This document shows, in pieces, positions 1-13,355 of a stretch of 13,355 bases of DNA. Source of the stretch: a virus; UHGV virus genome UHGV-1987395; one strand, written 5' to 3'. The notes under the pieces were generated by a model. It had not been told where the DNA came from, did not search any database, and worked only from the letters and a program-made list of their open reading frames with translations. The translations under genes and the position numbers were made by a program. Numbering within the stretch: the stretch's first letter is position 1; every line of letters starts with the position of its first letter.

Positions 1-1
1 A

Positions 2-346
2 GATGAGCACGGTTATCCGATTCTGACAAGTGATGAGATGAACGCCAAATACAAAGGGATTCAGGCAACATTTAAGGATCGGAAGAGCATTAAACTCTCT
101 GAATTGCGAGATGCATTTTACGGGCCGGAGGTGATGGATAAAATTAAAGGCACCGTTGAGGGTAGAATCTGGAAAGAAGATGATTATTGGCATTTAACAG
201 AACAGGCCCTTAAGGTGGCTCAACATGTAGCTAAAAGAGGTAAAACAATTATCATCGATTATATTAGTCATGGCTATGATGCCCCGAAAGAAAGATTGTG
301 GAACAACTGCAAGCTTGTAAAAGGCGAATTAACCATTACAAAATAA
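2..346 (+). CDS. hypothetical protein, 5'-truncated at window edge
   Basis: Frame is open from position 2 to the TAA at 344-346; the first in-window ATG is at 38. No family recognised. Confidence 0.4.
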   Translation, partial: DEHGYPILTSDEMNAKYKGIQATFKDRKSIKLSELRDAFYGPEVMDKIKGTVEGRIWKEDDYWHLTEQALKVAQHVAKRGKTIIIDYISHGYDAPKERLWNNCKLVKGELTITK

Positions 347-386
347 ACATTCTTATTTTTTTACAGTATTCTAAAGGAAATTTAAA

Positions 387-533
387 ATGTATGGCGATTT
401 TGATTATTACCTGGAAAAGGAAAAATATTTTGAAGATGAACTATCACAACATTTTTCATATTGGGAAGAATATTGTGGTTGGTTAGCTGAAGATCCAGCA
501 GATGAAGAAAATGATTCTGACATCCCTTATTAA
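387..533 (+). CDS. small acidic hypothetical protein (48 aa)
   Basis: ATG at 387 preceded by AGGAAA 6 nt upstream; translation MYGDFDYYLEKEKYFEDELSQHFSYWEEYCGWLAEDPADEENDSDIPY is very D/E-rich. Below the 60-aa cut-off of the ORF track; preferred over the overlapping 298..486 ORF, which has no RBS. Confidence 0.35.
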   Translation: MYGDFDYYLEKEKYFEDELSQHFSYWEEYCGWLAEDPADEENDSDIPY

Positions 534-631
534 TTAATATCCCCTGTTATCCCCAAACAAACTAAATAAATAAACTAAGCACTAGAACTAGATTGATTGC
601 CCTGATCTTTTAAACGTTCGGAGAATTAATC

Positions 632-1117
632 ATGTTCAAATCTGATCTTTCTGATTCCCAATTTGAAAAACTGGTAGCACTGCAGAAATATCTCCCCAGT
701 GATGATCAACCAACACGACAGGCTAAACACTTATTAGTCGAGGGCTTTACCCCTGAATTCGTGGCGGAATATACAGGCGTTAAACTTGAGAAAGTCCAAA
801 AACTATATAATGAGTCCTGGAATCCACGGTGTCGAGTTCCCCTCAGTGTCTACAACGAAATAGATAGAGATAGAAATGTCTTCGAAGATCGCCGCCGCAA
901 ATCTCTTTTAATGTGGAATTGTGGGATGAATATTGAAGAGATAGCAAAAGAATTAAAAGTAACCTGCTTTCATGTCTGGGGCTTGTTGAGTGAAATCCTG
1001 CCACGTAAGGAGCTTAATCAACGTTTGCCTAAGCCCGGTAGTCGTGCTTATCGCGAATTTATATTCATCTACCGCCGCCATAGCAATAAAGTCCGGAAAG
1101 CAATGCAGCGCAAATAG
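632..1117 (+). CDS. putative HTH transcriptional activator (Mor/C-like or sigma region-4-like)
   Basis: GGAG 8 nt upstream of ATG; segment RRKSLLMWNCGMNIEEIAKELKVTCFHVWGLLSEI resembles, from memory, the C-terminal HTH of Mu Mor/C-family activators; basic C-terminus. Confidence 0.4.
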   Translation: MFKSDLSDSQFEKLVALQKYLPSDDQPTRQAKHLLVEGFTPEFVAEYTGVKLEKVQKLYNESWNPRCRVPLSVYNEIDRDRNVFEDRRRKSLLMWNCGMNIEEIAKELKVTCFHVWGLLSEILPRKELNQRLPKPGSRAYREFIFIYRRHSNKVRKAMQRK

Positions 1118-1205
1118 CTTATAGCCTTCACATATGCCGCAAGTTATTGATTCTGCCGTCCGGTAAATATGCCGGATGGCTCATATAAATTTTAAGGAAT
1201 TCCAA

Positions 1206-1649
1206 ATGTCTCAAATCGCTAAATTATTATCCCAGGTTATCAAAGCTATCGACGCTGAAGATTCAAAAGTTCGCCAGGATCTTTTAGATGGCAAGTTTAC
1301 CAACACCCTGGCATTTACCCGTGACAAAGAGCACTTCTTAAAACACAGACACCACGCTTTTGCTGAATGCAAGTCCGCTAATGGTGATGTTTTCTATGTC
1401 GATTTGGTGGTTATGGCATGTAGGCTGTGGATGATTCAGGACCTTATGCGCCAACACGGTGATGATCCTCTTATCAGCATGTGGAACAGCGCCCAGGATG
1501 GCTTTGTGATTGCTGCCTTATCCAAATCAATGATTGAGGCAGAAGGGGCAAGCCTTCAGAACATGGCAGATCTCTTTGAAATAAGCGTAGGAATGATGCA
1601 GACCATGCTCCAAGCTGTCAAACCTCTCAAACTGGTTAATCTTGATTAA
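1206..1649 (+). CDS. hypothetical protein
   Basis: ORF 1176..1649 in the track; ATG at 1206 has AAGGA 8 nt upstream, whereas ATG at 1176 has no clear SD. No family recognised. Confidence 0.45.
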   Translation: MSQIAKLLSQVIKAIDAEDSKVRQDLLDGKFTNTLAFTRDKEHFLKHRHHAFAECKSANGDVFYVDLVVMACRLWMIQDLMRQHGDDPLISMWNSAQDGFVIAALSKSMIEAEGASLQNMADLFEISVGMMQTMLQAVKPLKLVNLD

Positions 1650-1703
1650 GATATTGATAAATAAGCACTCCCCATTTTTTTGGGGGTGCATCAATGAGAG
1701 GAT

Positions 1704-2093
1704 ATGCCTATGAATATTGAAGAAATGATAGTTGAATTCGAAGAGGGTGATTTCCTGGAAGAAGGGGAGTTTAAATACTCCCGTTTTAAACAGGCGTTAT
1801 TTAGCAGCGATGATAAACCCCACGTTAGTGATCTTAATGATGATGATTTATGTCGCCTGGTGTGCACCCGCTTATATGAAGATGGAAAGTATACAGGCCA
1901 AAACTTTCCAAATCTCTATTTCAAAGCACAAACATTTGAGGAAGGGCAAAGAGTGAAAAACCTGGTCGATCAAATGCTGTCAGCCGGATATTTGCATAAA
2001 GAATTATTAAATCCTAAAGCTGAAAGCAAGCGCCATTATATTTTTGTGTGGTCTGTGGGGGATAAGTGCCCACTGAAGCGTAAAGGTAAATGA
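1704..2093 (+). CDS. hypothetical acidic protein; possible tail assembly chaperone
   Basis: GAGAGGA SD upstream of ATG; acidic N-terminus; lies two genes upstream of the tape measure gene, the usual position of chaperones. Call is positional only. Confidence 0.4.
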   Translation: MPMNIEEMIVEFEEGDFLEEGEFKYSRFKQALFSSDDKPHVSDLNDDDLCRLVCTRLYEDGKYTGQNFPNLYFKAQTFEEGQRVKNLVDQMLSAGYLHKELLNPKAESKRHYIFVWSVGDKCPLKRKGK

Positions 2094-2094
2094 T

Positions 2095-2280
2095 ATGAAT
2101 ACCTACGAAAAGATTTATCAAAAATTAAAAAGTGATAACAATGCTCCCGTCATCAAGGGCGGGGCTTCTTCCTCTGGTGACCTCTCAATCGAAGAGCTTG
2201 CGGAGAAATATAATATTGATAAAGAGGCCCTGAAAAGGGCTATTTCATTATCAAAATCTTTAAGACAGGGCGAGGTGTAA
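2095..2280 (+). CDS. hypothetical small protein (61 aa)
   Basis: ATG 1 nt after the stop of the upstream ORF (TGAtATG), suggesting translational coupling; ends 3 nt before the tape measure start. Confidence 0.35.
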   Translation: MNTYEKIYQKLKSDNNAPVIKGGASSSGDLSIEELAEKYNIDKEALKRAISLSKSLRQGEV

Positions 2281-2283
2281 GAG

Positions 2284-4404
2284 ATGGCAATGAAGGAAGT
2301 AGCCAAGCTAACAAACGTTATTTACTGGGATTCTGATAAATCCTCCTGGCGAAAAGAAGTTAAACGGCTTGAGGATTATAAAAAATCCTGGAAGAAAGCT
2401 ACCGACGATATAGCTAAAGCGGATTTTAAATCGAATCAGGCTGTGCTCAGAACACAAAGAACACGCGCTAAGGTGGAAGAGCAGATTGCCAGAGCTCAGA
2501 GGAAACAACAGGAAGCACAGAAGAAACAACGTGCTCAGGCTGTCAGCCGTCTGACCGGGGGCAATAATCCGGAGCTCTCCTCTATGCGCAAGTTCTATCA
2601 GCAGCAAGCCAGAGAGGCCGCCAGACAACAAAAACTGTTAGATCGTAGTGTTGGAGATGTTCAGCACAGAAAAGCACGTGTAGGGGCCAACAGTGCACGA
2701 ATCAGCAGTATGTTTGATGGCTCCCTGGTTGCTCAGTTCCAAAGCAGAATCCAGAGAGTTAATGCTGATTATGCTAAAGGGGCTATCAACCTGCAGACCT
2801 ATAATCAGAGGATGGCCCGACTCAGATCTGAAATGAAGATGGCAACAGCTGAAGCCGGAAAATTCCAGAGCAGACTAGATAAACTGGCATCAGGTGCCAG
2901 CAAGGTGCATGACAACCTGGGCAAAATCAACTCCACGCTGGGCAAGATAGCCATTGGCCTTACTGCCGCTGGCTGGGGTGTTCAGCGTGCTGTTAGTGGT
3001 GCTATGGGTAGCCTTGCAGATCGCAACAGTGCCTACTTCGGTTTGATGGCACAGAACAAGGATGATAAAGCCAAGACTGATCAGCAGATGGCTTTTATCA
3101 AGAACACAGCCTACACCTATGGGATGGATGAGCGGGAGATGCAAGGGGGCTACATGCGCTTTGCTGCAGCTACCCCCACCATGAAGGAATCTGATAAGCA
3201 GGCTCTCTTTGAGGCTATGGCTATTAAAGGCCGCTCAGTGGGTGCTACTGGCGAGCAACAGAACAGGGCGCTTGTTGCGGTCCAACAAATGGCTTCAAAG
3301 GGAAAAGTTATGGCGGAAGAGCTGCGGGGCCAACTGTCAGAAGCCTTTGCAGGCTCACAACAGGACTTCCAACAGGCCGCTATTGATGCCGGAATCATCA
3401 AAAATACCCAGGAATTCGATAAAGCCCTTAAAGATGGCAAAATCACCCTGGACAAACTTCTTCCCTCTCTGGTGAAAATCTGGGGTGCAGCAAAAGAAAC
3501 TAAAGCTTTTGCTGAATCCATGAAACAGCCAGAAGTAGCAATGCAGCGCATGAAAAACAGCTTTAACGAGCTGGCGATTCAGTTTATGGGTGTTGTGGAT
3601 CCTGCAGATGGCGTTATTAGCTTATCTGAATCTCTAATCTCCATCTTCGAAGACCTCACCACTGATATGGACGGCAGCGGGAGCGCGGCAAAACAGTTTG
3701 GTGAGGCAGTCGGTGCTGCCATGCGGGAGATCATGTATTGGGTAGGCTTCGCTAAGGGATATATTGAGGTCAAGGCTAAAGAGTTCGGCATGACCGGATC
3801 AGAGGTTGGCGAGCTTATCGGGAAACTGGTAGTCGGCTTAGCTGGTCTGAAAGTTATTACCACACTGCTTTCCCCTCTGACCGGATTTGTTTCACTTGTC
3901 ACTCAGCTGATAGCCTTGTTAGGTAAAATCCCTGGTATGAGCAAGCTTCTGGCTTCTGCCTCAGGTGGAACGGCAACAGGAGCAGCGGTCATCAGTGCAG
4001 GATCTAACGCTGAAAGAAGCTTCATTGATGGCAAGACGCAGGAAATGAGTAAGGAGAACTCAAAACAGGGTGCTTTGTTTGAGCTGGGAAGATTTGTCAG
4101 CAATGCTGGCGCACTGTTCACACCTGGCGGCGATACTGGTCCTTTGTTCGATCAGGTCAGAGGCTGGTTTAATAAAGGGCCAACATTGACAGTAGACACT
4201 GGCATCAGACCAACACCGACGGGTGGCATGGCTATCCAGAATGGTGGATATCAACCAGTCCAAGTAAATGTAGCCCCACAAGGTGAGATTTCCGGCAAAT
4301 GGGAGATAACCATCGATGAGGGGGGAATTGCCAGGGTAATTCAGAAGGAAGTCAGCGATCAGTTGGATTGGAAAGCCACACAGGAATCTAACCAGCTTTT
4401 CTAA
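2284..4404 (+). CDS. phage tail tape measure protein
   Basis: 706 aa; N-terminal Q/R/K/A-rich predicted coiled coil; central region (NKDDKAKTDQQMAFIKNTAYTYGMDEREMQGGYMRFAAATPTMKESDKQALFEAMAIKGRSVGATGEQQNRALVAVQQMASKG...) resembles the conserved tape-measure core domain; Gly-rich hydrophobic segment near the C-terminus. Confidence 0.7.
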   Translation: MAMKEVAKLTNVIYWDSDKSSWRKEVKRLEDYKKSWKKATDDIAKADFKSNQAVLRTQRTRAKVEEQIARAQRKQQEAQKKQRAQAVSRLTGGNNPELSSMRKFYQQQAREAARQQKLLDRSVGDVQHRKARVGANSARISSMFDGSLVAQFQSRIQRVNADYAKGAINLQTYNQRMARLRSEMKMATAEAGKFQSRLDKLASGASKVHDNLGKINSTLGKIAIGLTAAGWGVQRAVSGAMGSLADRNSAYFGLMAQNKDDKAKTDQQMAFIKNTAYTYGMDEREMQGGYMRFAAATPTMKESDKQALFEAMAIKGRSVGATGEQQNRALVAVQQMASKGKVMAEELRGQLSEAFAGSQQDFQQAAIDAGIIKNTQEFDKALKDGKITLDKLLPSLVKIWGAAKETKAFAESMKQPEVAMQRMKNSFNELAIQFMGVVDPADGVISLSESLISIFEDLTTDMDGSGSAAKQFGEAVGAAMREIMYWVGFAKGYIEVKAKEFGMTGSEVGELIGKLVVGLAGLKVITTLLSPLTGFVSLVTQLIALLGKIPGMSKLLASASGGTATGAAVISAGSNAERSFIDGKTQEMSKENSKQGALFELGRFVSNAGALFTPGGDTGPLFDQVRGWFNKGPTLTVDTGIRPTPTGGMAIQNGGYQPVQVNVAPQGEISGKWEITIDEGGIARVIQKEVSDQLDWKATQESNQLF

Positions 4405-4504
4405 TGTCCACTCTGTGGATTTGAGTTCTACTCAAACCTGCATAGCAGGCACTGATATTGTGATCAAAATCAATAAGTTAGCCTGACCGGGTAAACTCCA
4501 GGCA

Positions 4505-4537
4505 AGAAAAAAGCCCCTAAGTGTTAACAAAGGGGCT
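4505..4537 (-). terminator. candidate intrinsic terminator, minus strand
   Basis: 7-bp stem AGCCCCT (4512-4518) / AGGGGCT (4531-4537) with a 12-nt loop, followed on the minus strand by TTTTTT (plus A-run 4505-4511). Confidence 0.45.
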
Positions 4538-4957
4538 CTTCTCCGGTATCCTTTTGATGCGGGGCGAACCTGCTAACAAAAATCAACCTCTCGCGAGACT
4601 AATGTTAGCAGGTTGCCGGAAGGTAAGTCAACTCCGGTCTATAAACCTTAAAGCGACTATAAAATCGCCCCGCCAATTGTGATGATCCGACCTTTGAGGC
4701 GGGTCCGGTGCCCAGGGGGGTGCAGTGATGCACAAACCAGGCAACGATAAACAGGCTAACAGTGATAGCGGCGCTCAATCAGCGCACTAAATCCTAACCA
4801 GTCCGGGAAAGAGGCTGGCTCTATCGACCGCTCATGCACGGGACAATGCATACCTGATAAAGGATTCTCACAAGGGACCAATCGCGAGAAAAGAAGAGGA
4901 AAGGGGCTGATTTGTGGTGTATCACTACGGCCTCAAAAGACCTTCTATTGTCTTTTT

Positions 4958-5416
4958 TCAACCTCTCCCCACATTTGACCAGTATTTGATTGCACCGATC
5001 AAATCATCATAGTGGCGCATTGCATCATTGAAGCCTTTATAGCTTGCCCATTGTGGGGAAACCTTGTTATTGCTGAATTGCCCACTAATCAGGATAGTCT
5101 CCAGAATGTCGGCGTATCGCTTGCCAATTCGCTTTCTGACGGCCTCAGAGCTTCCACCCTTTACGATTGCATTAATCAGGGCTTTTGTGTGTCTCAGGCT
5201 CTCATAGAGCATTGCAGCGTGGGCAGATTCCATAAAGGAGCGCTTAGGCAGATCACCCCACCCCTCAGAGTGGATAGCTGCCAGTGTGGCGTAATTCAGG
5301 CCGCTATAGTGCTTTCCGTCATCCCAGCCAACCGCTACACCTTCCATCTGTGAGAGCTCTTTATGCAGCTTATCCATCATGCGCTTGTCTATGGTGCAAC
5401 GGACTTTCGGACTCAT
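4958..5416 (-). CDS. putative virion morphogenesis / head-tail joining protein
   Basis: 152 aa; ATGA start-stop overlap with the upstream gene; segment LAAIHSEGWGDLPKRSFMESA resembles, from memory, the motif of HK97 gp10-like head-tail joining proteins. Weak. Confidence 0.35.
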   Translation of the reverse strand: MSPKVRCTIDKRMMDKLHKELSQMEGVAVGWDDGKHYSGLNYATLAAIHSEGWGDLPKRSFMESAHAAMLYESLRHTKALINAIVKGGSSEAVRKRIGKRYADILETILISGQFSNNKVSPQWASYKGFNDAMRHYDDLIGAIKYWSNVGRG

Positions 5417-6216
5417 TTGTTGATCTCCGTGATGTCATCGAGCAACATGTTGGCCTTATCAATCATCGTTTCGTGGAACTCATTCGACACAACAGACTTA
5501 TCACCTGCGGCAATCTTTCCCGCTGCCTCTCCCTGTGCATATTCCCCGCGATGCTTAGCCCTGGTAGATTTCGTAGCAGCGTTGCCAGCGTTGCTACCCT
5601 CTTTAGCACTGTTAACAGCACCCTTTTGCTGTGTTTTATTCACCTTCTTACTGTTAGTGAAAACTCCGGCATTTTCGACCATCTTCACCTTGAAGGTGCG
5701 GAATTCTTCAAAGGTGCAATCAATAGTGATGCAGTCACCAGAGGAAGAGCTACGCTTAACTTCACATTTCGTCATGATGAAGTTCTCAAGGAGTCCGGCA
5801 TCTTCACTCACCAGGCTGACCAGCTGGCGCTTGTCTCTCATTTCCATAAGTGCCTGAACAGCGGCAGCAGGGCGCATAGATTCACGGGGATTATCTGGAT
5901 CAGTGTTCCGGTCGATGTAGTTCTCTTTCCGGATGATATAAGGGGAAGAGGTAATAATACCCGTAAAGCTGACAGATTTATCTTTAATGACGGCATGGTC
6001 TGACATGGTGGTGCCATCCTCGACCGCATAGCTCGATTTCTCAACAGGGAACGAATAGCTGACATCAGAGATAGAGTCAAAGAAGATAGCCACATTATCG
6101 GTATAGTTGAAGCCATCCATTATATTTTTGTTTTGTGAATATCCCCCACACATAACAGTGAATGCAGGAGATCTCGACTCAGCTTGTTTTGCAGCTGTCA
6201 GAGCATCACTAGCCAT
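5413..6216 (-). CDS. hypothetical protein, probable virion protein by context
   Basis: ORF 5413..6225 in the track; ATG at 6216 has GGAGG 10 nt upstream, while the ATG at 6225 sits 1 nt from the SD. In the capsid operon; no family recognised. Confidence 0.45.
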   Translation of the reverse strand: MASDALTAAKQAESRSPAFTVMCGGYSQNKNIMDGFNYTDNVAIFFDSISDVSYSFPVEKSSYAVEDGTTMSDHAVIKDKSVSFTGIITSSPYIIRKENYIDRNTDPDNPRESMRPAAAVQALMEMRDKRQLVSLVSEDAGLLENFIMTKCEVKRSSSSGDCITIDCTFEEFRTFKVKMVENAGVFTNSKKVNKTQQKGAVNSAKEGSNAGNAATKSTRAKHRGEYAQGEAAGKIAAGDKSVVSNEFHETMIDKANMLLDDITEINK

Positions 6217-6321
6217 ATTAAACATGCCTCCAAAATGAATCTTTTCGTTGCCCTGCTTAAAATCTGCAGAAAATACAGGGCAGTTATTCGTTAGAATCGC
6301 TTATAGCTCTTCCCGAGAGCG

Positions 6322-6573
6322 TTATTTTGCAAAACGATTATGGGCATTCAGGGCTTTTTTGCGGTCCTGGGCTTGTTTGCGTGCAATAAAATGTTCGAAA
6401 GTCTCGGCCCAGGTGCATTTATTATATTCACGGTATTTATGCATAGCCTGGCGGCTAACGTCATAGCAGGCGGCAAATGTGGAGATACGCAGGAATTCCG
6501 GCAGATCCTCGTCATCGATATGGATAATATCAAAAGGCACGTCGTCACGGTCGCCGTATAAAACAATTTTCAT
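6322..6573 (-). CDS. hypothetical small protein (83 aa)
   Basis: ATG at 6573 with GAGGTG 6 nt upstream; the 6582 start in the track is GTG. Lies just downstream of the post-capsid terminator hairpin. Confidence 0.4.
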   Translation of the reverse strand: MKIVLYGDRDDVPFDIIHIDDEDLPEFLRISTFAACYDVSRQAMHKYREYNKCTWAETFEHFIARKQAQDRKKALNAHNRFAK

Positions 6574-6605
6574 AAAATACACCTCAAAAACTTAAGACGG
6601 GGATA

Positions 6606-6670
6606 ACAAAAAAGGGAAGAGGGAAAGACCTATCCCCGATCTCTCACCTCTTCCCTTTGCTTTTATTTGG
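6606..6670. terminator. bidirectional intrinsic terminator/attenuator between capsid gene and downstream gene
   Basis: 9-bp stem GGGAAGAGG (6614-6622) / CCTCTTCCC (6647-6655); flanked by an A-run 6608-6613 (a T-run on the minus strand) and a T-rich tract 6656-6668 on the plus strand. Confidence 0.55.
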
Positions 6671-6686
6671 CCTTCGAAGAAGGACC

Positions 6687-7730
6687 TTATTTAGCCTTGG
6701 CTTTTGCCAGAGCAGCGGCGGCGGAGTTTTTAACACTCACTTTAACCACAACTTCGGGCATCATGTTCATGAAAGCATAAGAGGATTCAACGAAGATTTC
6801 TCGTTTGCCTCTGGACTCTTCCATATACATGAAAGCTTCACGTGCAGCGCCGTTTGCAAGCTTCAGGTTGCGAGCGCAAGGGCCGAAAAATTGAGTATAA
6901 ACGCCCACCATATCGCCTAACGCATGCGGCTGGAACTGTGGGACCAGATAAGCAGTATTCTCTGGCAGACTATCCATTTGCACCACACGCAGAGCTAAGC
7001 CCGGAATGCGGAAGGTCGGGAAGCCCGGCAGAATATCCTCAGGGAACATCAGACCTTTGTCGGTAATATTCTGATTGCCGAACAACAGCACTTTACGGAG
7101 CAGTTCATCAGTCTGAATAGCGGCGAACACCTCAGCACGGCAGAACAGGGTGAAACCACGCAGAGCGCGAACGACACCACGCTGTTTAACCTTGCTCAGT
7201 GCAACCAGGTCCTGCAGTTGTTTGAGAATATCTTGAGCTAGATCCATTTCAGAGGTGGACTGTTCCACGCCCAGCAGTTCGCACACATTCAGCTCTTTAC
7301 CCTTGGTGAGGATAATTTTGTTCTCAAAGAGAGCAAGCTGGCGTGCTTCTTCGTGGGTCTGGCGTAAGCCTTCGCCCAGTTGAATAACACGACGAGCGGT
7401 TACAGACTCTAAATTCTCTTCGGAATCTTTGCCAGGAACACGAATACCCTGCCAGTCAGAAGGATAAATAGCACTTGATGCGGCAGTGAACGCCATATCA
7501 CCCGTGCCCGTTTCACGCTCATCTGCGGTAATGGTCGCCATCTGTTCACCGTAGCGCGGATACTGACCGAAAGCGGTTTGTTTCACCTGGCGAACTTTGT
7601 CATATTCAAATTTAAAGGTATTGCACAGAGCAGTAGTGTTGAAGATATCCATTGCTGAAATAATCTGGTTATCCAGCGGGATGTCTTTAATCAAGCCACA
7701 CAGATCGCGGACTTCGAATTCTTTTTTCAT
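6687..7730 (-). CDS. phage major capsid protein (E-family-like)
   Basis: 347 aa from ATG 7730 with AAGGAGG 6 nt upstream (the 7736 start in the track is TTG); size and position directly after a decoration-like gene match the usual decoration + E-family capsid pairing; Ala/Lys-rich C-terminal tail. Confidence 0.6.
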   Translation of the reverse strand: MKKEFEVRDLCGLIKDIPLDNQIISAMDIFNTTALCNTFKFEYDKVRQVKQTAFGQYPRYGEQMATITADERETGTGDMAFTAASSAIYPSDWQGIRVPGKDSEENLESVTARRVIQLGEGLRQTHEEARQLALFENKIILTKGKELNVCELLGVEQSTSEMDLAQDILKQLQDLVALSKVKQRGVVRALRGFTLFCRAEVFAAIQTDELLRKVLLFGNQNITDKGLMFPEDILPGFPTFRIPGLALRVVQMDSLPENTAYLVPQFQPHALGDMVGVYTQFFGPCARNLKLANGAAREAFMYMEESRGKREIFVESSYAFMNMMPEVVVKVSVKNSAAAALAKAKAK

Positions 7731-7741
7731 CTCCAACCTCC

Positions 7742-8077
7742 TTATTGTGCAATTCGCAAATCGCCATTGCTGGCAGCGATAACAGCGGCTAAGCCTTCTT
7801 TATCCACGTAGGCCGGATTGATGTAGCAACCTTTGTTGGCAACAACGATAAAAGCATCACCAACCTCAGCACGTTCTACAACCAGCAGCGGAGTTTTACC
7901 GGTGTGCGTTGCTTTAACGAAGGTCTCAACCTCGCCAGCCTCAGTCACCACAACAACAGTGCCAGCCGGAATCTCAGCCTTAACTTTGTTTTTAACTTCA
8001 ACGTCGCGAATACTAAATTGCTCATCTGCGGCGTATGAAATGATGTGTCCGCGTGTGCGGATAGTCATATCTCTCAT
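7742..8077 (-). CDS. putative head decoration protein (DUF2190-like)
   Basis: 111 aa; AGGTGA 4 nt upstream of ATG; Val/Gly/Ala-rich beta-type sequence; sits directly upstream of the capsid gene, with its stop overlapping the capsid SD. Confidence 0.5.
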   Translation of the reverse strand: MRDMTIRTRGHIISYAADEQFSIRDVEVKNKVKAEIPAGTVVVVTEAGEVETFVKATHTGKTPLLVVERAEVGDAFIVVANKGCYINPAYVDKEGLAAVIAASNGDLRIAQ

Positions 8078-8567
8078 TTGATCACCTGCGATTTAAATTA
8101 ACTCCCCTCAAAGAGTTCCGGTATAACCTCTCAAACCACGACAGGCTCGGGCCGAAAAGTTATGCCGGAAATCTAAAGGGAAATTGATACAAGGAGAGGG
8201 AGATAGCCCCGCACCGTAGCCAAGCGGGGGCTATTCCACATGGGGAAACCGACAACAGTCGGATGATAGTTCACAGTATGGTTACGGTTACTAGAGAGCA
8301 CTATCACGAAAGGCACTCCCCCGAATCAGTTCAGGCTGCGGTCACATCAGCGGGGAAATACCTTTCGGGATAGCTACCCACACAGAAAACCCGCAAAAGA
8401 AAACTGTGTGGATAACTAGCCCAATAGGAGAATTAATCGACCACTCAACGATGATCAGGGTAGTGTTATTTATAAGGCGGCACCGCTACCTGGTCGCCTT
8501 TACTTTGGAGGAAAATACGGCAAATCAAGATCTTCTCAAATGATATTGATTCCATACTATACTGTAT

Positions 8568-8596
8568 ATTATATCAGTATTTACTCACATTGTCAA
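8568..8596 (-). promoter_or_regulatory. consensus sigma70 promoter reading leftward toward the capsid operon
   Basis: On the minus strand: TTGACA (plus 8596-8591), 17-nt spacer, TATAAT (plus 8573-8568). Perfect match at both hexamers with optimal spacing. Confidence 0.6.
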
Positions 8597-8750
8597 CACC
8601 TTGATTATATAAATTCTAATAATTAGCGTAGTAACGGTATTTTCAGACCTCTATCAATCCCATCAATACGTCACCCCCACCCTTTAGATGCATACATCCG
8701 ACCTACTTTGTAGGCTTGGCGTACTGCCAAGGTCGCAGCTATGCGACTCC

Positions 8751-8783
8751 TATCTATCACCACTTTATAAAGCTTGATAGATA
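8751..8783. promoter_or_regulatory. dyad-symmetric operator-like site
   Basis: TATCTATCA (8751-8759) and TGATAGATA (8775-8783) are perfect inverted repeats, concentric with an inner perfect palindrome CTTTATAAAG (8763-8772); overlaps a candidate -35 TTGATA at 8774-8779. Confidence 0.4.
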
Positions 8784-8926
8784 TCTTTTGATCAATATCA
8801 ATGTTTTCCAGAGATTTACCCGGCTATAGTTCGAATCAAGGAAGGGGAGCATTGATAGAGACACCCAAAGGGGTGACTGAAAGTCACCTGGCATAGCCAG
8901 TGAAAGCACCCAACCGAACAAACAAA

Positions 8927-8944
8927 TCAACTTCTCGCAAAAGG
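8927..8944 (+). promoter_or_regulatory. conserved 5'-UTR motif, copy 1
   Basis: TCAACTTCTCGCAAAAGG ends 8 nt before ATG 8953; near-identical to the copy at 9446-9464. Confidence 0.4.
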
Positions 8945-8952
8945 TGATAGTT

Positions 8953-9075
8953 ATGGGTATCAAGAACAGTGCCAGCGCATGGCAAAAGGCCAGGTTTCAT
9001 CACCCACACATGGTCAAGGCAATTGAGGTGGTTGGAGTTTTAGCCCTGATGTTAGCTCTGTGTGTGGAGGTGTGA
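8953..9075 (+). CDS. possible small membrane peptide (40 aa)
   Basis: AAGGTGA SD; translation MGIKNSASAWQKARFHHPHMVKAIEVVGVLALMLALCVEV has a C-terminal hydrophobic helix; preceded by the conserved TCAACTTCTCGCAAA motif. Below the track cut-off. Confidence 0.25.
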   Translation: MGIKNSASAWQKARFHHPHMVKAIEVVGVLALMLALCVEV

Positions 9076-9076
9076 G

Positions 9077-9157
9077 ATGGGTAAAGGAGGCAAAGAATTT
9101 TTAATAGGTCTGGCAGTCTTAGATTTTGTATTAATCATCATTGAGCGGAGTTTATGA
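9077..9157 (+). CDS. possible small membrane peptide (26 aa)
   Basis: GGAGGTG SD 4 nt upstream; translation MGKGGKEFLIGLAVLDFVLIIIERSL; its stop overlaps the next start as ATGA. Confidence 0.2.
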   Translation: MGKGGKEFLIGLAVLDFVLIIIERSL

Positions 9158-9414
9158 CGGGAACTAAAGATATTAAGAGACTGAGGGAAGAGCTGATAGC
9201 TGAAATTAAAGCTAAGGCAAAGCAAATGGAGATAGCCGCACAAATGGATGTAGCGGAACAGATGTACAAGATGGTTGAGGAGGGAACGCCACGACAGGTT
9301 ATAGCAAAAACCTTCGGTGTGGGGATCGCCACCGTGCACAGAAGGCTGAAAGCCTATGCCGACTACCACAATATCGAGAGAAAGGAGGATGGGAGATTTA
9401 AGAAGAATAAATAG
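9154..9414 (+). CDS. small DNA-binding protein with resolvase/invertase-type HTH
   Basis: 86 aa; charged helical N-terminus; C-terminal GTPRQVIAKTFGVGIATVHRRLK resembles, from memory, the Hin/Gin C-terminal HTH (GHPRQQLAIIFGIGVSTLYRY); no recombinase catalytic domain. Confidence 0.5.
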   Translation: MTGTKDIKRLREELIAEIKAKAKQMEIAAQMDVAEQMYKMVEEGTPRQVIAKTFGVGIATVHRRLKAYADYHNIERKEDGRFKKNK

Positions 9415-9445
9415 TGTGAACAGTCCAATAGGTTATTAACTAAAT

Positions 9446-9464
9446 TCAACTTCTCGCAAAGGGG
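9446..9464 (+). promoter_or_regulatory. conserved 5'-UTR motif, copy 2
   Basis: TCAACTTCTCGCAAAGGGG ends 7 nt before ATG 9472; same motif as 8927-8944. Confidence 0.4.
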
Positions 9465-9471
9465 TACCACT

Positions 9472-10059
9472 ATGAACATTAAAACTATCATTGCAGCCAT
9501 CACCATTGCCTTTAGTGCCAACACTGCAGCTATTGATGTTAATTTATTTCAGAAGATGACTTGCGAAGATAAATTAGTTGCCATGGATAAGGGGCTAGAA
9601 GCCACGCATAATGGGGAACAGTTTCATTTCTCCTTGAAGAATCTTATCTTGCCCCTGGATTCTGCCGCACAGGTATATGCAACATTGGGTAAATTTGAGA
9701 AGCCGGAAATTGACCTGCAGGGCGTGAGAGCGAAGATCACCAAAAGAAATGAAAGCATTTGTGATATAGCGGTTACGGCCCTTATGACAGATGATGAAAA
9801 AACGATTATAGCTACATGCAAAGATAGCAACGACAACGAACGATTCTTTAAGATCACCCACAACAGGCCCGTTTCTTTCTACTCTAATGCCACAATGGGC
9901 GCGGGTATGCAGTGGCTGAAGAGAGCTAAAGTAACTGAGGTTAATGCTGATGACGATTTATCCTATGAATACGGTTTTATTTCCAATTATATGGCGTGGC
10001 ACCTGAAAAAATGCGGCATCAATGGTCAGGCATACGACAATGGATTTTGGTTTTTCTAA
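9472..10059 (+). CDS. secreted/periplasmic protein of unknown function
   Basis: N-terminal signal peptide MNIKTIIAAITIAFSANTAA with an AxA-like cleavage site; AGGGG SD; followed by an intrinsic terminator at 10081-10106; ends in aromatic FWFF. Confidence 0.55.
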   Translation: MNIKTIIAAITIAFSANTAAIDVNLFQKMTCEDKLVAMDKGLEATHNGEQFHFSLKNLILPLDSAAQVYATLGKFEKPEIDLQGVRAKITKRNESICDIAVTALMTDDEKTIIATCKDSNDNERFFKITHNRPVSFYSNATMGAGMQWLKRAKVTEVNADDDLSYEYGFISNYMAWHLKKCGINGQAYDNGFWFF

Positions 10060-10080
10060 CCTATTAAGTTAATCCCACCT

Positions 10081-10106
10081 GGGGGCCATCACGGCCCCTT
10101 TTTATT
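10081..10106 (+). terminator. intrinsic terminator after the secreted-protein gene
   Basis: GGGGCC (10082-10087), loop ATCAC, GGCCCC (10093-10098), then TTTTTATTT. Confidence 0.65.
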
Positions 10107-10108
10107 TA

Positions 10109-10164
10109 TCCCCTATTTAACCCCTATTTAATGGGTATTTAATGCCTATTTATTGATTTAATGG
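10109..10164. repeat. five tandem copies of an 11-bp unit (consensus about CCCTATTTAA)
   Basis: TCCCCTATTTAA / CCCCTATTTAA / TGGGTATTTAA / TGCCTATTTAT / TGATTTAATGG in direct succession immediately after the terminator; 11-bp period is about one helical turn. Confidence 0.55.
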
Positions 10165-11566
10165 TTTTGGGCATTGTTGACAGTGTAAGAGAGAGGATGT
10201 AACCCTTTTTTGTAATACTAATAAAATCAATAGCTTAGCTCAATTGGCCTTTTCTCTGTTTTTGTCAAATTTAACATACCCTAAAAAACTGCAAAATCTG
10301 GCTGCAAGATTATCTGCAGCTGGATTTCTTACACCTCATTTTGTGGTATCACCCTGACTAGTTTGTGCATAAAATGAACAGTTTTTAACATTTCCTCTTC
10401 ACCTGGTAACCACACAAAAAGCTAAAAACGAGGCACAGATAATCTTAGAGGCCTGTTTTCTTGTTATCACTCTAGAAACGTCGTAGAGATGATTTTAATG
10501 AAAGATGACCTACCCTATTACACCCCTATTTTTTGTTATCACAATTGCATCCTGTGCGGTGTATGGCTATGTGCTGAAAGCGGTCTTATGTGTGGGTGTC
10601 AGAAATATCCATTAGCGGTATTAATACCCGTCGGAGATTCGTCTGAGGTGCCAGGCAGGCGCTCCCCCACCTCCCTTTTTTCTTCTAACAATTCTCAAAT
10701 ATCACACCACTGCCGACCACGTTACTACTCTGTTAATTCTTAAGCTTTGCTGTATGTTGTGCACATTATTTATTCAGGTGGCTGTACGTAAATTCTGTGC
10801 CCACTGATCATGATTTTTAAATCAGATTTTGTAGTTCGCTTTATTAGTGTAGATAAGATCTATTATGTTAAATGCAATTTTCCCAACCCTTCAAATCAAT
10901 GACTTACATGTAAGTATGCACTAACACCCCACACAGCACATTAGACGTATAGATGGCTATATCCCACATTTTTGATTGTTTTGTAGTCATTCCCCTGATC
11001 ATTTAACCAGTATAGTTTGTTCTCTGTAGACCACAAAATCGGAATTTACATCTGATTAACATAATCTGTTAGCATGATCACTATTACCCACACAACAATA
11101 ACCCCATGCAAGCCTCTTTAGGCAATTTATCGGCGTGTTGGTGTGAACAGTCTTTCATGTTCTTTATGAATTCATGACTGCAAGGAATGTATTCATTGTC
11201 CTGTGTGGGGGAAGGATGGACTGCCCCAGGGGCCATAGTTATGACACCCGGTCAACATAACTGTCGATAAAATCAACGGGTGTTGGTATGCATATTTCCC
11301 ACACATGAGAGAAAATCAAAGCAAAGAGAGAGGAGAGAGGTTTGCTAGTCAAAATAGGTCAATTGACGGCTAATACAGAGTAAAAAATCAGATGCAATCA
11401 CTCCCCCACCTGTTGGGATTTCCTACAACCCCTTTCAGTCATACTCAGGCACCACACCCCGGTAAATATTACCGCACTAACCTGTAAAGAATTTTCACAC
11501 CTGTGTGTTTATACAGTCATACTCTCCTGTTTTGCAGTCATTGCACCCATGATACACAGCCCCTAA

Positions 11567-11676
11567 CCTGTCAAAATATTTTACTACTTAGCCACTATAG
11601 CTATGCATACCTGTAAAATATTTTTACTACTACCTGTCAAAATACTTTACTACTACCTGTAAAAATATTTGACACT
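11567..11676. repeat. iteron-like 22-bp direct repeats (four copies, plus a degenerate copy at 11481-11500)
   Basis: CCTGTCAAAATATTTTACTACT (11567-11588), CCTGTAAAATATTTTTACTACT (11610-11631), CCTGTCAAAATACTTTACTACT (11633-11654), CCTGTAAAAATATTTGACACT (11656-11676); the last three are spaced 23 bp start to start. Confidence 0.6.
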
Positions 11677-11789
11677 AATAGATAAAGTAATAGACCACAC
11701 AAGATCCCCCCTAACCCCCCAGGGGGAATGGGGAGGGATCAGAGAGTGGGGAAGGTTTTCTAAGGGAAAAGCTTAACCCACAAATGAAA

Positions 11790-11818
11790 GCCTAAAGAGC
11801 ATTAGCGACTCTTTAGGC
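11790..11818. repeat. perfect 10-bp inverted repeat (hairpin or operator)
   Basis: GCCTAAAGAG (11790-11799), 9-nt spacer, CTCTTTAGGC (11809-11818); the half-site CTCTTTAGGCAAT recurs at 11114-11126. Confidence 0.5.
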
Positions 11819-12258
11819 AATATGTGTGTGGGTCACTCTGTGACTTTAGCTATACAGCTAAACCGACTACGTCGGCCTGTGTGTGGGGGTGACAATGTAT
11901 TCCATACATGACACGTCACCCAATTGTGTGTGGTCCGGCGAATGCGTCAGCATGAGGCCCACATGTGGACCGCTGCCGAAAGCTTGCCAGCGCCGGAAGG
12001 AGGCAGCAAAGAGTCTCCCGCGCGGGTGCACGCACACACATACAAAGGATACACTCATAAATCGAAAATAAGCCACCTAAATGGCCTTCTGGCTGCATTA
12101 ACTAGTGTGAGTAGTGCAATTGCATTACCTGACCTCTAAATCGCGTTAGAATCGATTTTAGAGCGCTTAAGGCAAAAAGTGCCCTCCCTTGTGGGCTTGC
12201 TTGTGTCTGCTGTGCAGGCTATGGCACCTATAGCACACCTAAATGATAATAATTCTCA

Positions 12259-12277
12259 TTGACAATTGGTTGACAAT
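12259..12277. promoter_or_regulatory. tandem TTGACAAT boxes (candidate operator or overlapping -35 elements)
   Basis: TTGACAAT at 12259-12266 and 12270-12277, 11 bp apart; a third copy at 12449-12456 forms the -35 of the downstream promoter. Confidence 0.4.
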
Positions 12278-12448
12278 GTGATAAGATTATAAATAGGGGG
12301 AGAAACAGATCCGGAGGTCAATGTGGAAATTACTGATGCAATAGCGATCATCAACCTGGCTGTACTGTGGTGCGGTGTTGCCTACATAGCCGGAGTAACT
12401 GCAATCGACAATCTTGAAGAAAAAATGATAGATAAATACAAAAAGATT

Positions 12449-12477
12449 GTTGACAATTTGACGAATGTCTGATAAAA
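12449..12477 (+). promoter_or_regulatory. sigma70-like promoter upstream of the 71-aa gene
   Basis: TTGACA (12449-12454), 17-nt spacer, TAAAAT (12472-12477). Confidence 0.5.
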
Positions 12478-12605
12478 TATAAAGCATAGGGTAATTCTCA
12501 TCATAGTGAATTTCCTTTAGTAGACTGGCGGGGGCTTGTCTTAAGTTCCCGTTTCTTTTTAATCATATATCGCACAGGTTAGTGAGCTAACAGGAGGCTT
12601 ATACT

Positions 12606-12821
12606 ATGGCTAAAACCGGACCGATCAGCCAGTTGGTAAACTGGACTACTGACGAAATCGTCGAGAACGTACTTAAGGGGAACTTCCGCAAAACTTCCGT
12701 TTATGCATTCATTCGTAAACATAAAGGAGAATATCCACACATTGAAGAAGCAATTTTAAAACTAAATTGCATTCGCCTTGAGCGGGAACTGGCTAAATAC
12801 ACCAATAACATTAATAAATAA
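12606..12821 (+). CDS. hypothetical small protein (71 aa), possible DNA-binding regulator
   Basis: AGGAGG 8 nt upstream of ATG; lies about 130 nt downstream of a consensus-like promoter; no family recognised. Confidence 0.45.
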   Translation: MAKTGPISQLVNWTTDEIVENVLKGNFRKTSVYAFIRKHKGEYPHIEEAILKLNCIRLERELAKYTNNINK

Positions 12822-12835
12822 TTATGGGGGAATTA

Positions 12836-13355
12836 TGGCAAGTAATTACGGGGAAAATTTTACTCCCCTTTTTAAACGTTTCATCAAATACATTTTTAAA
12901 AATCCGATTGCAAAAACTACAACCAATAAAGAAAGATTTCACTTAAACTTGTTGGAAATGACAATTTACGGTGAGATGGCAAGTTTTAATGCTGCAGGTT
13001 GTGAAATATTTATCTCTGAACAGAGATTAGCAGACGATTATGATGTTTCAAGACCGACAGTTATTAACTCGATTAAATCTCTAGAAAATGCCGGGCTTAT
13101 TTCAATAGTTAAAAGTAAAGGCAAATCTAATCATTACAAACTGCTAATTACCCCTGATCAGCTTGGCAAGATGTGTGATGAGCAGGGTATTAAAACCTCC
13201 GACAGTGTGGGATCTAGTAAAGAGGCCCCCGATAATCAACAGGAAGCCCCAAAACAAGCCACACAGCAAGCTAAAAAGGCCGAGGTGGTGCAATTGCCTA
13301 CCCAACCTAAGAACGAGCGCAGAGAGCGCTTTAGAGACGCTGGCAAACGTGAGAA
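12836..13355 (+). CDS. winged-HTH DNA-binding protein, putative replication initiator or regulator (3'-truncated)
   Basis: Open from ATG 12836 to the window end; segment ISEQRLADDYDVSRPTVINSIKSLENAGLISIVKSKGKSNHYKLL is a classic winged-HTH; followed by a low-complexity Q/K/A/E-rich linker. Confidence 0.5.

What the first reader, a model, noticed from the sequence alone, without database searches (positions are those of the whole stretch)
387..533. Small, highly acidic 48-aa protein
About 40% Asp/Glu with aromatic residues and a good RBS. Small acidic proteins in mobile elements are often DNA mimics or anti-defence factors. It sits beside a truncated unknown gene at the left edge.
Basis: inference. 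Interest (0 to 1): 0.35.

Follow-up and report, generated by a model that had tools for sequence, protein, structure and literature searches.

The report
Detachable acidic tail of replication initiator

Summary
The ORF at 387-533 is real. It encodes 48 aa with 33% Asp/Glu (not ~40%), 25% aromatic residues and a net charge of about -14, and it has an AAGGA ribosome-binding site. Against an 81%-identical orthologue, dN/dS is about 0.11.

The window is a complete, circularly permuted ~13.3 kb E. coli plasmid that carries phage capsid and tail genes. The "truncated gene" at the left edge is the 3' end of its winged-helix replication initiator (Rep), which wraps around the window ends.

- **Same slot, different proteins:** in 37 of 37 related loci whose Rep has a basic ~115-aa C-terminal domain, a small acidic Tyr-terminated ORF follows Rep. 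There are four sequence types, and three of them are mutually unrelated in sequence.
- **Fused form:** in 7 of 7 loci whose Rep lacks that domain, no such ORF exists. Rep itself ends in a 54-aa acidic, aromatic tail with the same ...NDSAIPY tip.

This split/fused pattern ties the protein to replication initiation. I infer that it is a trans-acting tail whose Asp-Ile-Pro-Tyr-COOH tip works like the SSB C-terminal tip (Asp-Ile-Pro-Phe-COOH) to engage a replisome or primosome partner.

The anti-defence/DNA-mimic reading has no positive support. No partner has been shown, so the mechanism is inferred.

The parts
374..378 (+). Ribosome-binding site AAGGA, 8 nt upstream of the ATG
   Evidence: Read directly from the sequence. 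The same TAAAGGAAATTTAAAATG context is conserved in all type-i orthologues.
387..533 (+). 48-aa acidic protein gene (type i), stop codon included
   Evidence: Annotated as WP_001682500.1 in RefSeq plasmids. dN/dS about 0.11 against L003.
393..488 (+). Residues 3-34: aromatic-rich N-terminal part, predicted helical. Inferred to be the anchor that docks onto the Rep C-terminal domain.
   Evidence: AlphaFold2 gives helix 3-34 at pLDDT about 60-69, which is low confidence. Of the first 34 positions, 25 are invariant between the 48-aa and 71-aa homologues. Docking is inference.
489..530 (+). Residues 35-48: acidic tail EDPADEENDSDIPY, predicted as coil, ending in the tip Asp-Ile-Pro-Tyr-COOH (tip codons 519-530)
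   Evidence: Predicted as coil. The [I/V]-P-Y-COOH ending is kept in types i, ii, iii and the fused type v. Type ii uses different codons (GTG CCT TAC TGA).
12835..13355 (+). Replication initiator (Rep) gene, 5' part: winged-helix DNA-binding domain and disordered linker (residues 1 to about 170). The gene continues at window position 1.
   Evidence: Junction translation. PHROG replication-initiation families, best E = 4.7e-12. AF2 model has a winged helix at 35-116 and disorder at 122-170.
1..346 (+). Rep gene, 3' part: basic C-terminal domain (residues 171-288, pI 9.1) plus stop. This is the 'truncated gene' of the finding. Inferred docking site for the acidic protein.
   Evidence: (pLDDT 79-90). 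This domain is present in every locus that has a separate acidic ORF and absent in every locus where the tail is fused.
11477..11677 (.). Array of about five 22-23 bp iterons (ACCTGTCAAAATATTTTAC...), the presumed origin or Rep-binding sites
   Evidence: The iteron sequence changes with the Rep N-terminal allele and not with the C-terminal allele in sister elements.
12450..12478 (+). Promoter-like site (TTGACA-17-TAAAAT, 11/12 matches, TG-extended) upstream of the 71-aa ORF / Rep / acidic-ORF operon
   Evidence: Consensus scan only. No terminator-like site lies between Rep, the acidic ORF and the next gene.
632..1117 (+). Downstream 161-aa gene with weak HTH similarity. It bounds the conserved 'slot' on the right and is retained in elements that lack the free acidic ORF.

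Best explanation
The ORF encodes a trans-acting acidic tail for the element's iteron-binding replication initiator.

**Shown**
- It is a real gene under purifying selection.
- It is co-oriented with Rep, 40 nt downstream, with no terminator between them.
- Every sister element has either a Rep with a basic C-terminal domain followed by a free small acidic Tyr-terminated protein, or a Rep without that domain that carries an equivalent 54-aa acidic, aromatic tail covalently, ending in the same ...NDSAIPY.

**Inferred**
- The N-terminal part (residues 1-34, predicted helical) docks onto the Rep C-terminal domain.
- This places a flexible 14-residue acidic tail at the origin.
- The tip of that tail, Asp-Ile-Pro-Tyr with a free carboxylate, acts like the SSB C-terminal tip (Asp-Ile-Pro-Phe-COOH). 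The same logic is used by the acidic, Phe-terminated tails of T7 gp2.5 and gp4.
- The tip plugs into a pocket on a host replication or primosome protein. Candidates with known SSB-tip pockets are PriA, the DnaG C-domain and the chi subunit of the clamp loader.
- This would help assemble a replisome at an origin whose element encodes no helicase, loader or primase.
For: **The gene is real.**
- RBS present.
- RefSeq annotates the identical protein in six plasmids.
- Against L003 there are 10 synonymous and 9 non-synonymous differences, with dN 0.097 and dS 0.857.
- The composition is a strong outlier.

**The neighbour is a replication initiator.**
- PHROG replication-initiation, O-like and DnaD-like families match, with E down to 4.7e-12.
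- The model shows a winged helix, a disordered linker and a folded C-terminal domain.
- 23-bp-spaced iterons change with the Rep N-terminal allele and not with the C-terminal allele.

**Split/fused pattern.**
- 37/37 loci with a Rep C-terminal domain have a free acidic Tyr-terminated ORF in the slot. 7/7 loci with the tail-bearing Rep have none.
- The fused tail is stable across 44 protein clusters. Mean pairwise identity is 0.875 in the tail and 0.95 in its last 20 residues, against 0.70 in the linker.

**The analogues share properties, not sequence.**
- Types i, iii and iv are not alignable outside the tip.
- All forms are 48-71 aa with net charge -13 to -16. The three C-terminal domain alleles are all basic, pI 9.1-9.2.

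**The tip is conserved at protein level.**
- DSDIPY, NSDIPY, DSAIPY and DCVPY all occur. The last uses different codons and a different stop codon.

**The SSB tip as defined in the literature.**
[quoted passage not shown] The terminal aromatic residue sits in a hydrophobic pocket, the alpha-carboxylate on a basic lip and the Asp residues on a basic ridge. The penultimate Pro is critical (PMC10164576; PMC6163395).

**The element needs host factors.** No helicase, loader, primase or SSB gene is recognisable in it.
Against: - No binding partner is shown.
- The terminal residue is Tyr in every locus, never the Phe of SSB.
- Type iv proteins end in ...DDYYDEDY and lack the Ile-Pro, so a strict SSB-tip mimic cannot explain all variants.
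- Types iii and v share identical DNA from the tip codons onward. Part of the tip 'conservation' therefore reflects a recombination junction.
- Pairing of acidic type with C-terminal domain allele is not strict. A, B and A2 all occur with type i, so any docking surface must be common to all alleles.
- The helix is only weakly amphipathic (hydrophobic moment 0.23, shuffle p = 0.08), and the AF2 confidence is low.
- The sampled loci are not independent. Many are near-identical and were chosen through Rep clusters.
Confidence: 0.45

Rival explanations
1. The protein is a regulatory nucleic-acid-mimicking tail. The acidic, aromatic segment binds the initiator's own DNA- or ssDNA-binding surface, or its basic C-terminal domain. 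It acts as a negative or specificity-enhancing regulator of initiation (copy-number control), as acidic tails do in SSB, T7 gp2.5 or Hfq. It does not recruit a host factor.
For: - The same split/fused linkage to Rep applies.
- Charge is complementary to the basic Rep: whole protein pI 9.1, C-terminal domain +4.
- Acidic tips that autoregulate nucleic-acid binding are documented for Hfq (PMC5606850, listed).
- Iteron plasmids need tight negative control (established knowledge).
Against: - The strictly terminal [I/V]-P-Y or D-Y with a free carboxylate is conserved across otherwise unrelated sequences. That is typical of a peptide-in-pocket contact rather than diffuse electrostatic mimicry.
- The element has no recruitment module of its own.
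Confidence: 0.2
2. The protein is a free anti-defence or host-interference factor. It would be either a DNA mimic that blocks restriction or other nucleases, or a decoy of the SSB tail that titrates host SSB-interacting nucleases and helicases (ExoI, RecQ, RecJ, PriA) to protect the element.
For: - It is small, very acidic and expressed from the element's early or replication operon.
- The tip resembles the SSB C-terminal tip.
- The slot holds unrelated sequences with the same properties, and fast turnover of that kind is also typical of counter-defence genes.
Against: - No similarity to any known anti-restriction or anti-defence family, or to any solved structure.
- 48 aa with one predicted helix is far smaller than known duplex-DNA mimics.
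- In about 44 Rep clusters the equivalent segment is covalently tethered to the origin-binding protein, and no free copy exists. That is hard to reconcile with a diffusible decoy.
Confidence: 0.12
3. The protein is an antitoxin or anti-activator for the downstream 161-aa helix-turn-helix protein.
For: A small acidic protein lies directly upstream of a basic HTH-like protein in the same operon.
Against: - The intergenic gap is about 100 nt and there is no overlap.
- The 161-aa gene is retained, nearly unchanged, in all seven loci that lack a free acidic ORF.
- There are no toxin or antitoxin family matches.
Confidence: 0.04

Closest known systems
[quoted passage not shown]
   Same: - An acidic run is followed by Ile-Pro-aromatic at the extreme C-terminus. 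The window protein has D-S-D-I-P-Y against D-D-D-I-P-F in SSB.
- It sits at the end of a segment predicted to be flexible.
- It occurs in a replication context.
   Different: - The terminal residue is Tyr, not Phe.
- There is no OB-fold or ssDNA-binding domain, so this is not an SSB.
- The tail is attached, covalently or as I infer non-covalently, to an origin-binding initiator.
- One variant (type iv) lacks Ile-Pro.
- Binding to SSB-interacting proteins is untested.
Acidic, Phe-terminated C-terminal tails of phage T7 gp2.5 (SSB) and gp4 (helicase-primase), which bind T7 DNA polymerase (established knowledge, not tested here)
   Same: - The logic is general: an acidic tail with a terminal aromatic residue and a free carboxylate serves as an interchangeable replisome-assembly handle.
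- This fits type iv (...DDYYDEDY) as well as the IPY types.
   Different: - There is no sequence homology.
- Those tails are always covalent parts of larger enzymes.
- Here the tail can be a free-standing 48-71 aa protein.
Two-component phage initiators such as lambda O + P (an origin-binding protein whose C-terminal domain binds a separate adaptor that brings in host DnaB)
   Same: - The gene order is initiator followed by a small partner gene.
- The initiator has the same layout: N-terminal winged helix, linker and C-terminal protein-interaction domain, with PHROG O-like matches.
- The element depends on host replication proteins.
   Different: - The partner here is 48 aa and acidic, with no similarity to P or any helicase loader.
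- It can be replaced by a covalent tail when the C-terminal domain is missing.
DNA-mimic anti-restriction proteins (Ocr, ArdA and similar)
   Same: Very acidic, small, and encoded by mobile elements.
   Different: - No homology.
- Much smaller.
- Linked to the replication initiator by the split/fused pattern.

Membership tests
SSB-Ct-type acidic C-terminal docking tip | The motif sits at the extreme C-terminus, so the alpha-carboxylate of the last residue is free | tested here: met
   ...DSDIPY is followed directly by TAA. The same holds in all 44 loci surveyed.
SSB-Ct-type acidic C-terminal docking tip | The last residue is Phe, buried in a hydrophobic pocket of the partner (PMC10164576) | tested here: not met
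   The last residue is Tyr in every variant. It is aromatic but not Phe, and whether pockets accept Tyr is unknown.
SSB-Ct-type acidic C-terminal docking tip | Penultimate Pro, preceded by Ile or Leu (the ssb-113 Pro-to-Ser change disrupts binding) | tested here: met
   Ile-Pro occurs in types i, iii and v and Val-Pro in type ii. This is not met in the analogous type iv protein, which ends ...DEDY.
SSB-Ct-type acidic C-terminal docking tip | A run of acidic residues immediately upstream of the hydrophobic end | tested here: met
   8 of the last 14 residues are Asp or Glu, including D43 and D45.
SSB-Ct-type acidic C-terminal docking tip | The tip is carried on an intrinsically disordered linker | tested here: inconclusive
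   AF2 predicts coil for residues 35-48, but pLDDT is only 51-60 and the alignment has four sequences. Linker length varies from 14 to about 37 residues between types i and ii, which fits a flexible linker.
SSB-Ct-type acidic C-terminal docking tip | Binds SSB-interacting proteins (PriA, chi, DnaG, ExoI, RecQ and others) | not testable with these tools
   This needs peptide-binding assays or multimer modelling.
Bacterial/phage SSB proteins | An OB-fold ssDNA-binding domain | tested here: not met
   There are no Pfam, NCBIfam, PHROG or PDB matches, and the 48-aa protein is predicted as a helix. It is not an SSB.
DNA-mimic anti-restriction proteins (Ocr/ArdA-like) | Sequence or profile similarity to a known family | tested here: not met
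   No hits in Pfam, PHROGs, NCBIfam or PDB sequences.
DNA-mimic anti-restriction proteins (Ocr/ArdA-like) | A folded, elongated surface that displays carboxylates with the spacing of a DNA backbone | tested here: inconclusive
   A single low-confidence helix plus coil in 48 aa. That is too small for a duplex mimic as a monomer, and oligomers were not modelled.
DNA-mimic anti-restriction proteins (Ocr/ArdA-like) | Inhibits restriction or other defence systems | not testable with these tools
   This requires an experiment.
Lambda P-type helicase-loading adaptors | Homology to P, DnaC or DnaI-type loaders, or a DnaB-binding domain | tested here: not met
   No family matches.
Type II antitoxin | Obligate pairing with an adjacent toxin gene | tested here: not met
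   The downstream gene persists without a free acidic ORF in 7/7 fused-type loci.

The most novel reading that the evidence does not exclude
The acidic mini-protein is a free-standing 'tail-only' replisome adaptor. A docking segment of about 30 residues clips it onto the initiator's C-terminal domain. Its SSB-like Asp-Ile-Pro-Tyr-COOH tip then hijacks the host's SSB-interaction pockets (for example PriA, DnaG or chi) to build a replisome at an origin that has no loader of its own. Evolution has toggled the same module between a separate gene and a covalent initiator tail, and has replaced it at least three times with unrelated sequences of the same charge and ending.
Probability: 0.25. Interest if true: 0.75.

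Novelty: new variant of a known kind. Interest (0 to 1): 0.5.

Why it matters
If this reading is correct, an origin-binding initiator can tap the host's SSB-interaction network through a short acidic tail. That tail can even be supplied as a separate 48-residue protein. This would be a minimal and easily testable way for a helicase-less, loader-less replicon to recruit a replisome.

It would add a "split tail" architecture to the known ways in which plasmids and phages initiate replication. It would also give a natural peptide ligand (...DSDIPY) for SSB-tip pockets, which are being studied as antibacterial targets (PMC6163395).

The work also draws attention to an apparently undescribed, widespread family of ~13-14 kb circular E. 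coli/Shigella elements. They carry capsid and tail genes but no recognisable packaging genes.

Tried and rejected
- **Homologue searches.** The 5.8-billion-protein word-indexed search and the full HMMER scan of 1.84 billion representatives found only three clusters, all on 13-14 kb E. coli contigs. tblastn against 50,697 phage records found nothing. In PLSDB plasmids it found only the same element.
- **Family and structure libraries.** There were no hits for any of the four small acidic types in Pfam, PHROGs, NCBIfam or PDB sequences.
- **Fold search of the Rep model.** Only winged-helix repressors and one plasmid initiator were returned. The C-terminal domain stayed unidentified.
- **Amphipathic-helix test.** The hydrophobic moment is 0.23 with shuffle p = 0.08, which is not significant, so I make no claim of a clean docking face.
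- **Search for more distant elements.** The 161-aa neighbour, the Rep alignment and the capsid protein found nothing in GTDB species representatives or IMG/VR. JGI metagenomes gave five close relatives.
- **Rfam.** No RNA family was found anywhere in the window.
- **Antitoxin idea.** Rejected because the downstream gene persists without the free ORF.
- **The antisense 38-aa ORF at 407-523 and the overlapping 62-aa ORF at 298-486.** I treat these as by-products. Substitutions follow the 387-533 frame.
- **Literature searches.** I looked for SSB-tip mimics on initiators and for this plasmid family, and found nothing specific.

Full report
**1. The observation**

Positions 387-533 (+) hold an ATG-to-TAA ORF of 48 codons: MYGDFDYYLEKEKYFEDELSQHFSYWEEYCGWLAEDPADEENDSDIPY. 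AAGGA lies 8 nt upstream of the ATG.
- Asp+Glu is 16/48 (33%, not ~40%).
- Aromatic residues are 12/48 (25%).
- There are only two Lys and no Arg.
- The computed pI is 4.05 and the charge at pH 7 is about -14.

No other ORF in the window approaches this composition. None of 7,557 ORFs from 200 shuffles of the window did either.

**2. Where the ORF sits**

The window is not a fragment with a truncated gene at its edge. Megablast finds seven complete E. coli "plasmids" of 13.3-13.7 kb. One further record of 39.6 kb contains three copies. All are 92-96% identical to the window over 82-95% of its length. The window is therefore a circular permutation of the whole element.

The "truncated gene" is the 3' end of a 288-aa gene that runs 12835-13355 and then 1-346. 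The evidence on that protein is as follows.
- It matches PHROG replication-initiation, O-like and DnaD-like families, with best E = 4.7e-12.
- Its AlphaFold2 model has a winged helix at 35-116, a disordered linker at 122-170 and a folded C-terminal domain (CTD) at 171-288 with pLDDT 79-90.
- An array of 23-bp-spaced iterons lies at 11477-11677.
- In sister elements the iteron sequence changes with the N-terminal allele of this protein and not with its C-terminal allele. For example, L006 and L007 share the N-terminal allele and the iteron ACCTGTTGGAATTTCCCAC but have different CTDs. L009 has a different N-terminal domain and the iteron ACCCCGGTAAATATTTCCG.

I therefore treat this protein as the element's iteron-binding replication initiator (Rep). 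This is well supported but not proven.

The rest of the element encodes a tape measure protein, a Dit-like baseplate protein, a tail-completion protein, a major capsid protein and several unknowns. No helicase, loader, primase, SSB, terminase, portal or integrase is recognisable.

The acidic ORF starts 40 nt after the Rep stop on the same strand. There is no terminator-like site before or after it.

**3. Is it a gene?**

RefSeq annotates the identical 48-aa protein (WP_001682500.1) in six of the seven plasmids.

Database searches found only three clusters, all on 13-14 kb E. coli contigs:
- one at 98% identity;
- one at 81% identity;
- a 71-aa homologue.

Against the 81% orthologue (L003) there are 10 synonymous and 9 non-synonymous codon differences. 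That gives dN 0.097 and dS 0.857, which is clear purifying selection in this frame.

The 71-aa homologue keeps 25 of the first 34 residues. It has a longer acidic linker and ends in ...DCVPY.

**4. The key comparative result**

In plasmid NZ_CP020521.1 (L009) the ORF is missing. There, a Rep of a different type ends in ...ISSFMADEDDTQSEWWTPSENDYSGSGGYDPYGYDEDEYNPFEDEYTNDSAIPY. That Rep has the same conserved PQEAPKQA linker motif but lacks the ~115-aa CTD.

This is not a one-off. Forty-four protein clusters of this Rep type carry the tail.
- Mean pairwise identity in the tail is 0.875, and 0.95 in its last 20 residues.
- That compares with 0.70 in the preceding linker and 0.89 in the DNA-binding domain.

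I then surveyed the slot between Rep and the conserved 161-aa gene in every locus fetched.
- All 37 loci whose Rep has a CTD (alleles A, A2 or B, 45-55% identical to each other) carry a separate small acidic ORF ending in Tyr.
- All 7 loci with the tail-bearing Rep carry none.

The free ORFs fall into four types:

| Type | Length | C-terminal ending |
|---|---|---|
| i (this one) | 48 aa | ...DSDIPY or ...NSDIPY |
| ii | 71 aa | ...DCVPY |
| iii | 62 aa | ...RDSAIPY |
| iv | 52-54 aa | ...DDYYDEDY |

Types i, iii and iv are not alignable outside the tip. Yet all forms, including the covalent tail, are 48-71 residues long with net charge -13 to -16. All three CTD alleles are basic, pI 9.1-9.2.

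The loci are not independent samples. Even so, the pattern holds across four Rep classes and several sources.

**5. The tip**

The [Ile/Val]-Pro-Tyr-COOH ending is shared by types i, ii, iii and the fused form.

Types iii and v share identical DNA from the tip codons into the downstream intergenic block. Part of this conservation therefore reflects a recombination junction. Two points argue for protein-level selection as well. Type ii encodes Val-Pro-Tyr with different codons and a different stop codon. Three unrelated upstream sequences also join the tip in frame.

[quoted passage not shown] In SSB the terminal aromatic side chain enters a hydrophobic pocket, the alpha-carboxylate sits on a basic lip, the Asp residues contact a basic ridge, and the penultimate Pro is critical (PMC10164576; PMC6163395).

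Two differences matter. The last residue here is always Tyr. Type iv lacks Ile-Pro and looks more like the acidic, aromatic-terminated tails of T7 gp2.5 and gp4 (my knowledge, not tested here).

**6. Structure**

With only four sequences, AF2 gives a helix for residues 3-34 (pLDDT about 60-69) and coil for residues 35-48. The helix is not significantly amphipathic. A complex with the Rep CTD could not be modelled. Foldseek on the Rep model recognised only the winged helix.

**7. Interpretation**

The split/fused alternation works like a Rosetta-stone fusion, so the acidic protein and Rep act together. The CTD is dispensable exactly when the tail is covalent. The simplest reading is that the CTD is the docking site for the free tail protein. 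This is inference.

What the tail does is less certain.
- **Preferred reading.** A flexible acidic tail with a conserved aromatic C-terminus next to an origin-bound initiator, in an element with no loader or primase, most resembles a recruitment handle of the SSB or T7 type for a replisome or primosome protein.
- **Regulatory rival.** The tail could mimic nucleic acid and restrain Rep, as the acidic C-terminal domains of Hfq restrain Hfq (PMC5606850). This is a serious alternative.
A diffusible anti-defence DNA mimic has no positive evidence. It fits poorly with the covalently tethered form.
- **Antitoxin role.** This is excluded by the persistence of the downstream gene without the free ORF.

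**8. Novelty and verdict**

No member of this protein family has a described function, and it matches no library family. The principle (an acidic tail with a terminal aromatic residue as a docking handle) is known. A free-standing or initiator-borne version would be a new variant.

My confidence by step is:
- about 0.95 that it is a real gene;
- about 0.7 that it works with Rep;
- about 0.45 for the recruitment-tail mechanism as a whole;
- about 0.25 for true use of SSB-tip pockets.

Interest is moderate at 0.5.

Noticed in passing
window 1-13355 (whole): The window is a complete circular ~13.3 kb E. coli plasmid. It carries a major capsid protein, a tape measure protein, a Dit-like baseplate protein and a tail-completion protein, but no recognisable terminase, portal, protease, lysis, integrase or partition genes. 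More than 100 Rep clusters at 90% identity occur on 13.3-14.4 kb contigs from E. coli, Shigella and E. albertii. One is labelled Caudoviricetes in a metagenome. The capsid protein has no tblastn match in 50,697 phage records, and the tape measure protein is only ~27% identical to those of rV5-like phages. This may be an undescribed phage satellite or miniature phage-plasmid family. I found no paper describing it.
   Followed up: partly
NZ_CP043822.1 (L002 is part of it): One 'plasmid' record of 39,610 bp holds three tandem copies of the ~13.2 kb element. Another contig of 40,370 bp carries a Rep fragment (P0115). These are either real multimers, which would be relevant to headful packaging of a small element, or assembly artefacts.
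   Followed up: no
window 12835-13355 + 1-346; L003, L006-L010, L012: Rep is a mosaic. Several N-terminal winged-helix alleles, three C-terminal-domain alleles and a tail-only form are recombined around a conserved linker motif, PQEAPKQATQQ. The iteron sequence follows the N-terminal allele. This suggests diversification of replication specificity or incompatibility.
   Followed up: partly
L003 6797-7183; L006 6882-7247; L020 1982-2482: Some elements carry an extra gene (121-166 aa) just upstream of Rep that encodes only a winged helix. L003 also has two different iteron families. This may be a second specificity or a repressor.
   Followed up: no
window 8100-9150 and 10060-12300: About 1 kb and 2.2 kb have no convincing ORF and no Rfam match. 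The second stretch contains an 11-nt repeat array (CCCTATTTAA-like) at 10100-10151 and the iterons at 11477-11677. That is an unusually large non-coding share for a 13 kb element.
   Followed up: no
window 534-547 and 581-597: A 14-nt insertion right after the stop codon (TTAATATCCCCTGT) looks like a partial duplication of the tip-coding DNA. It is absent from some sister plasmids. A similar remnant...ATCCCCCTGTTATCCCC, follows the type iv genes. The intergenic direct repeat ACTAGAACTAGATTGAT (581-597) ahead of the 161-aa gene is conserved in all elements. It may be an operator.
   Followed up: no
window 12259-12478: Two similar strong promoter-like sequences (TTGACAATT...GATAAGAT and ...GATAAAAT) lie 191 nt apart. 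They bracket a conserved 49-aa ORF (12323-12472, WP_157794903.1) and are followed by a terminator-like hairpin at 12527-12553.
   Followed up: no
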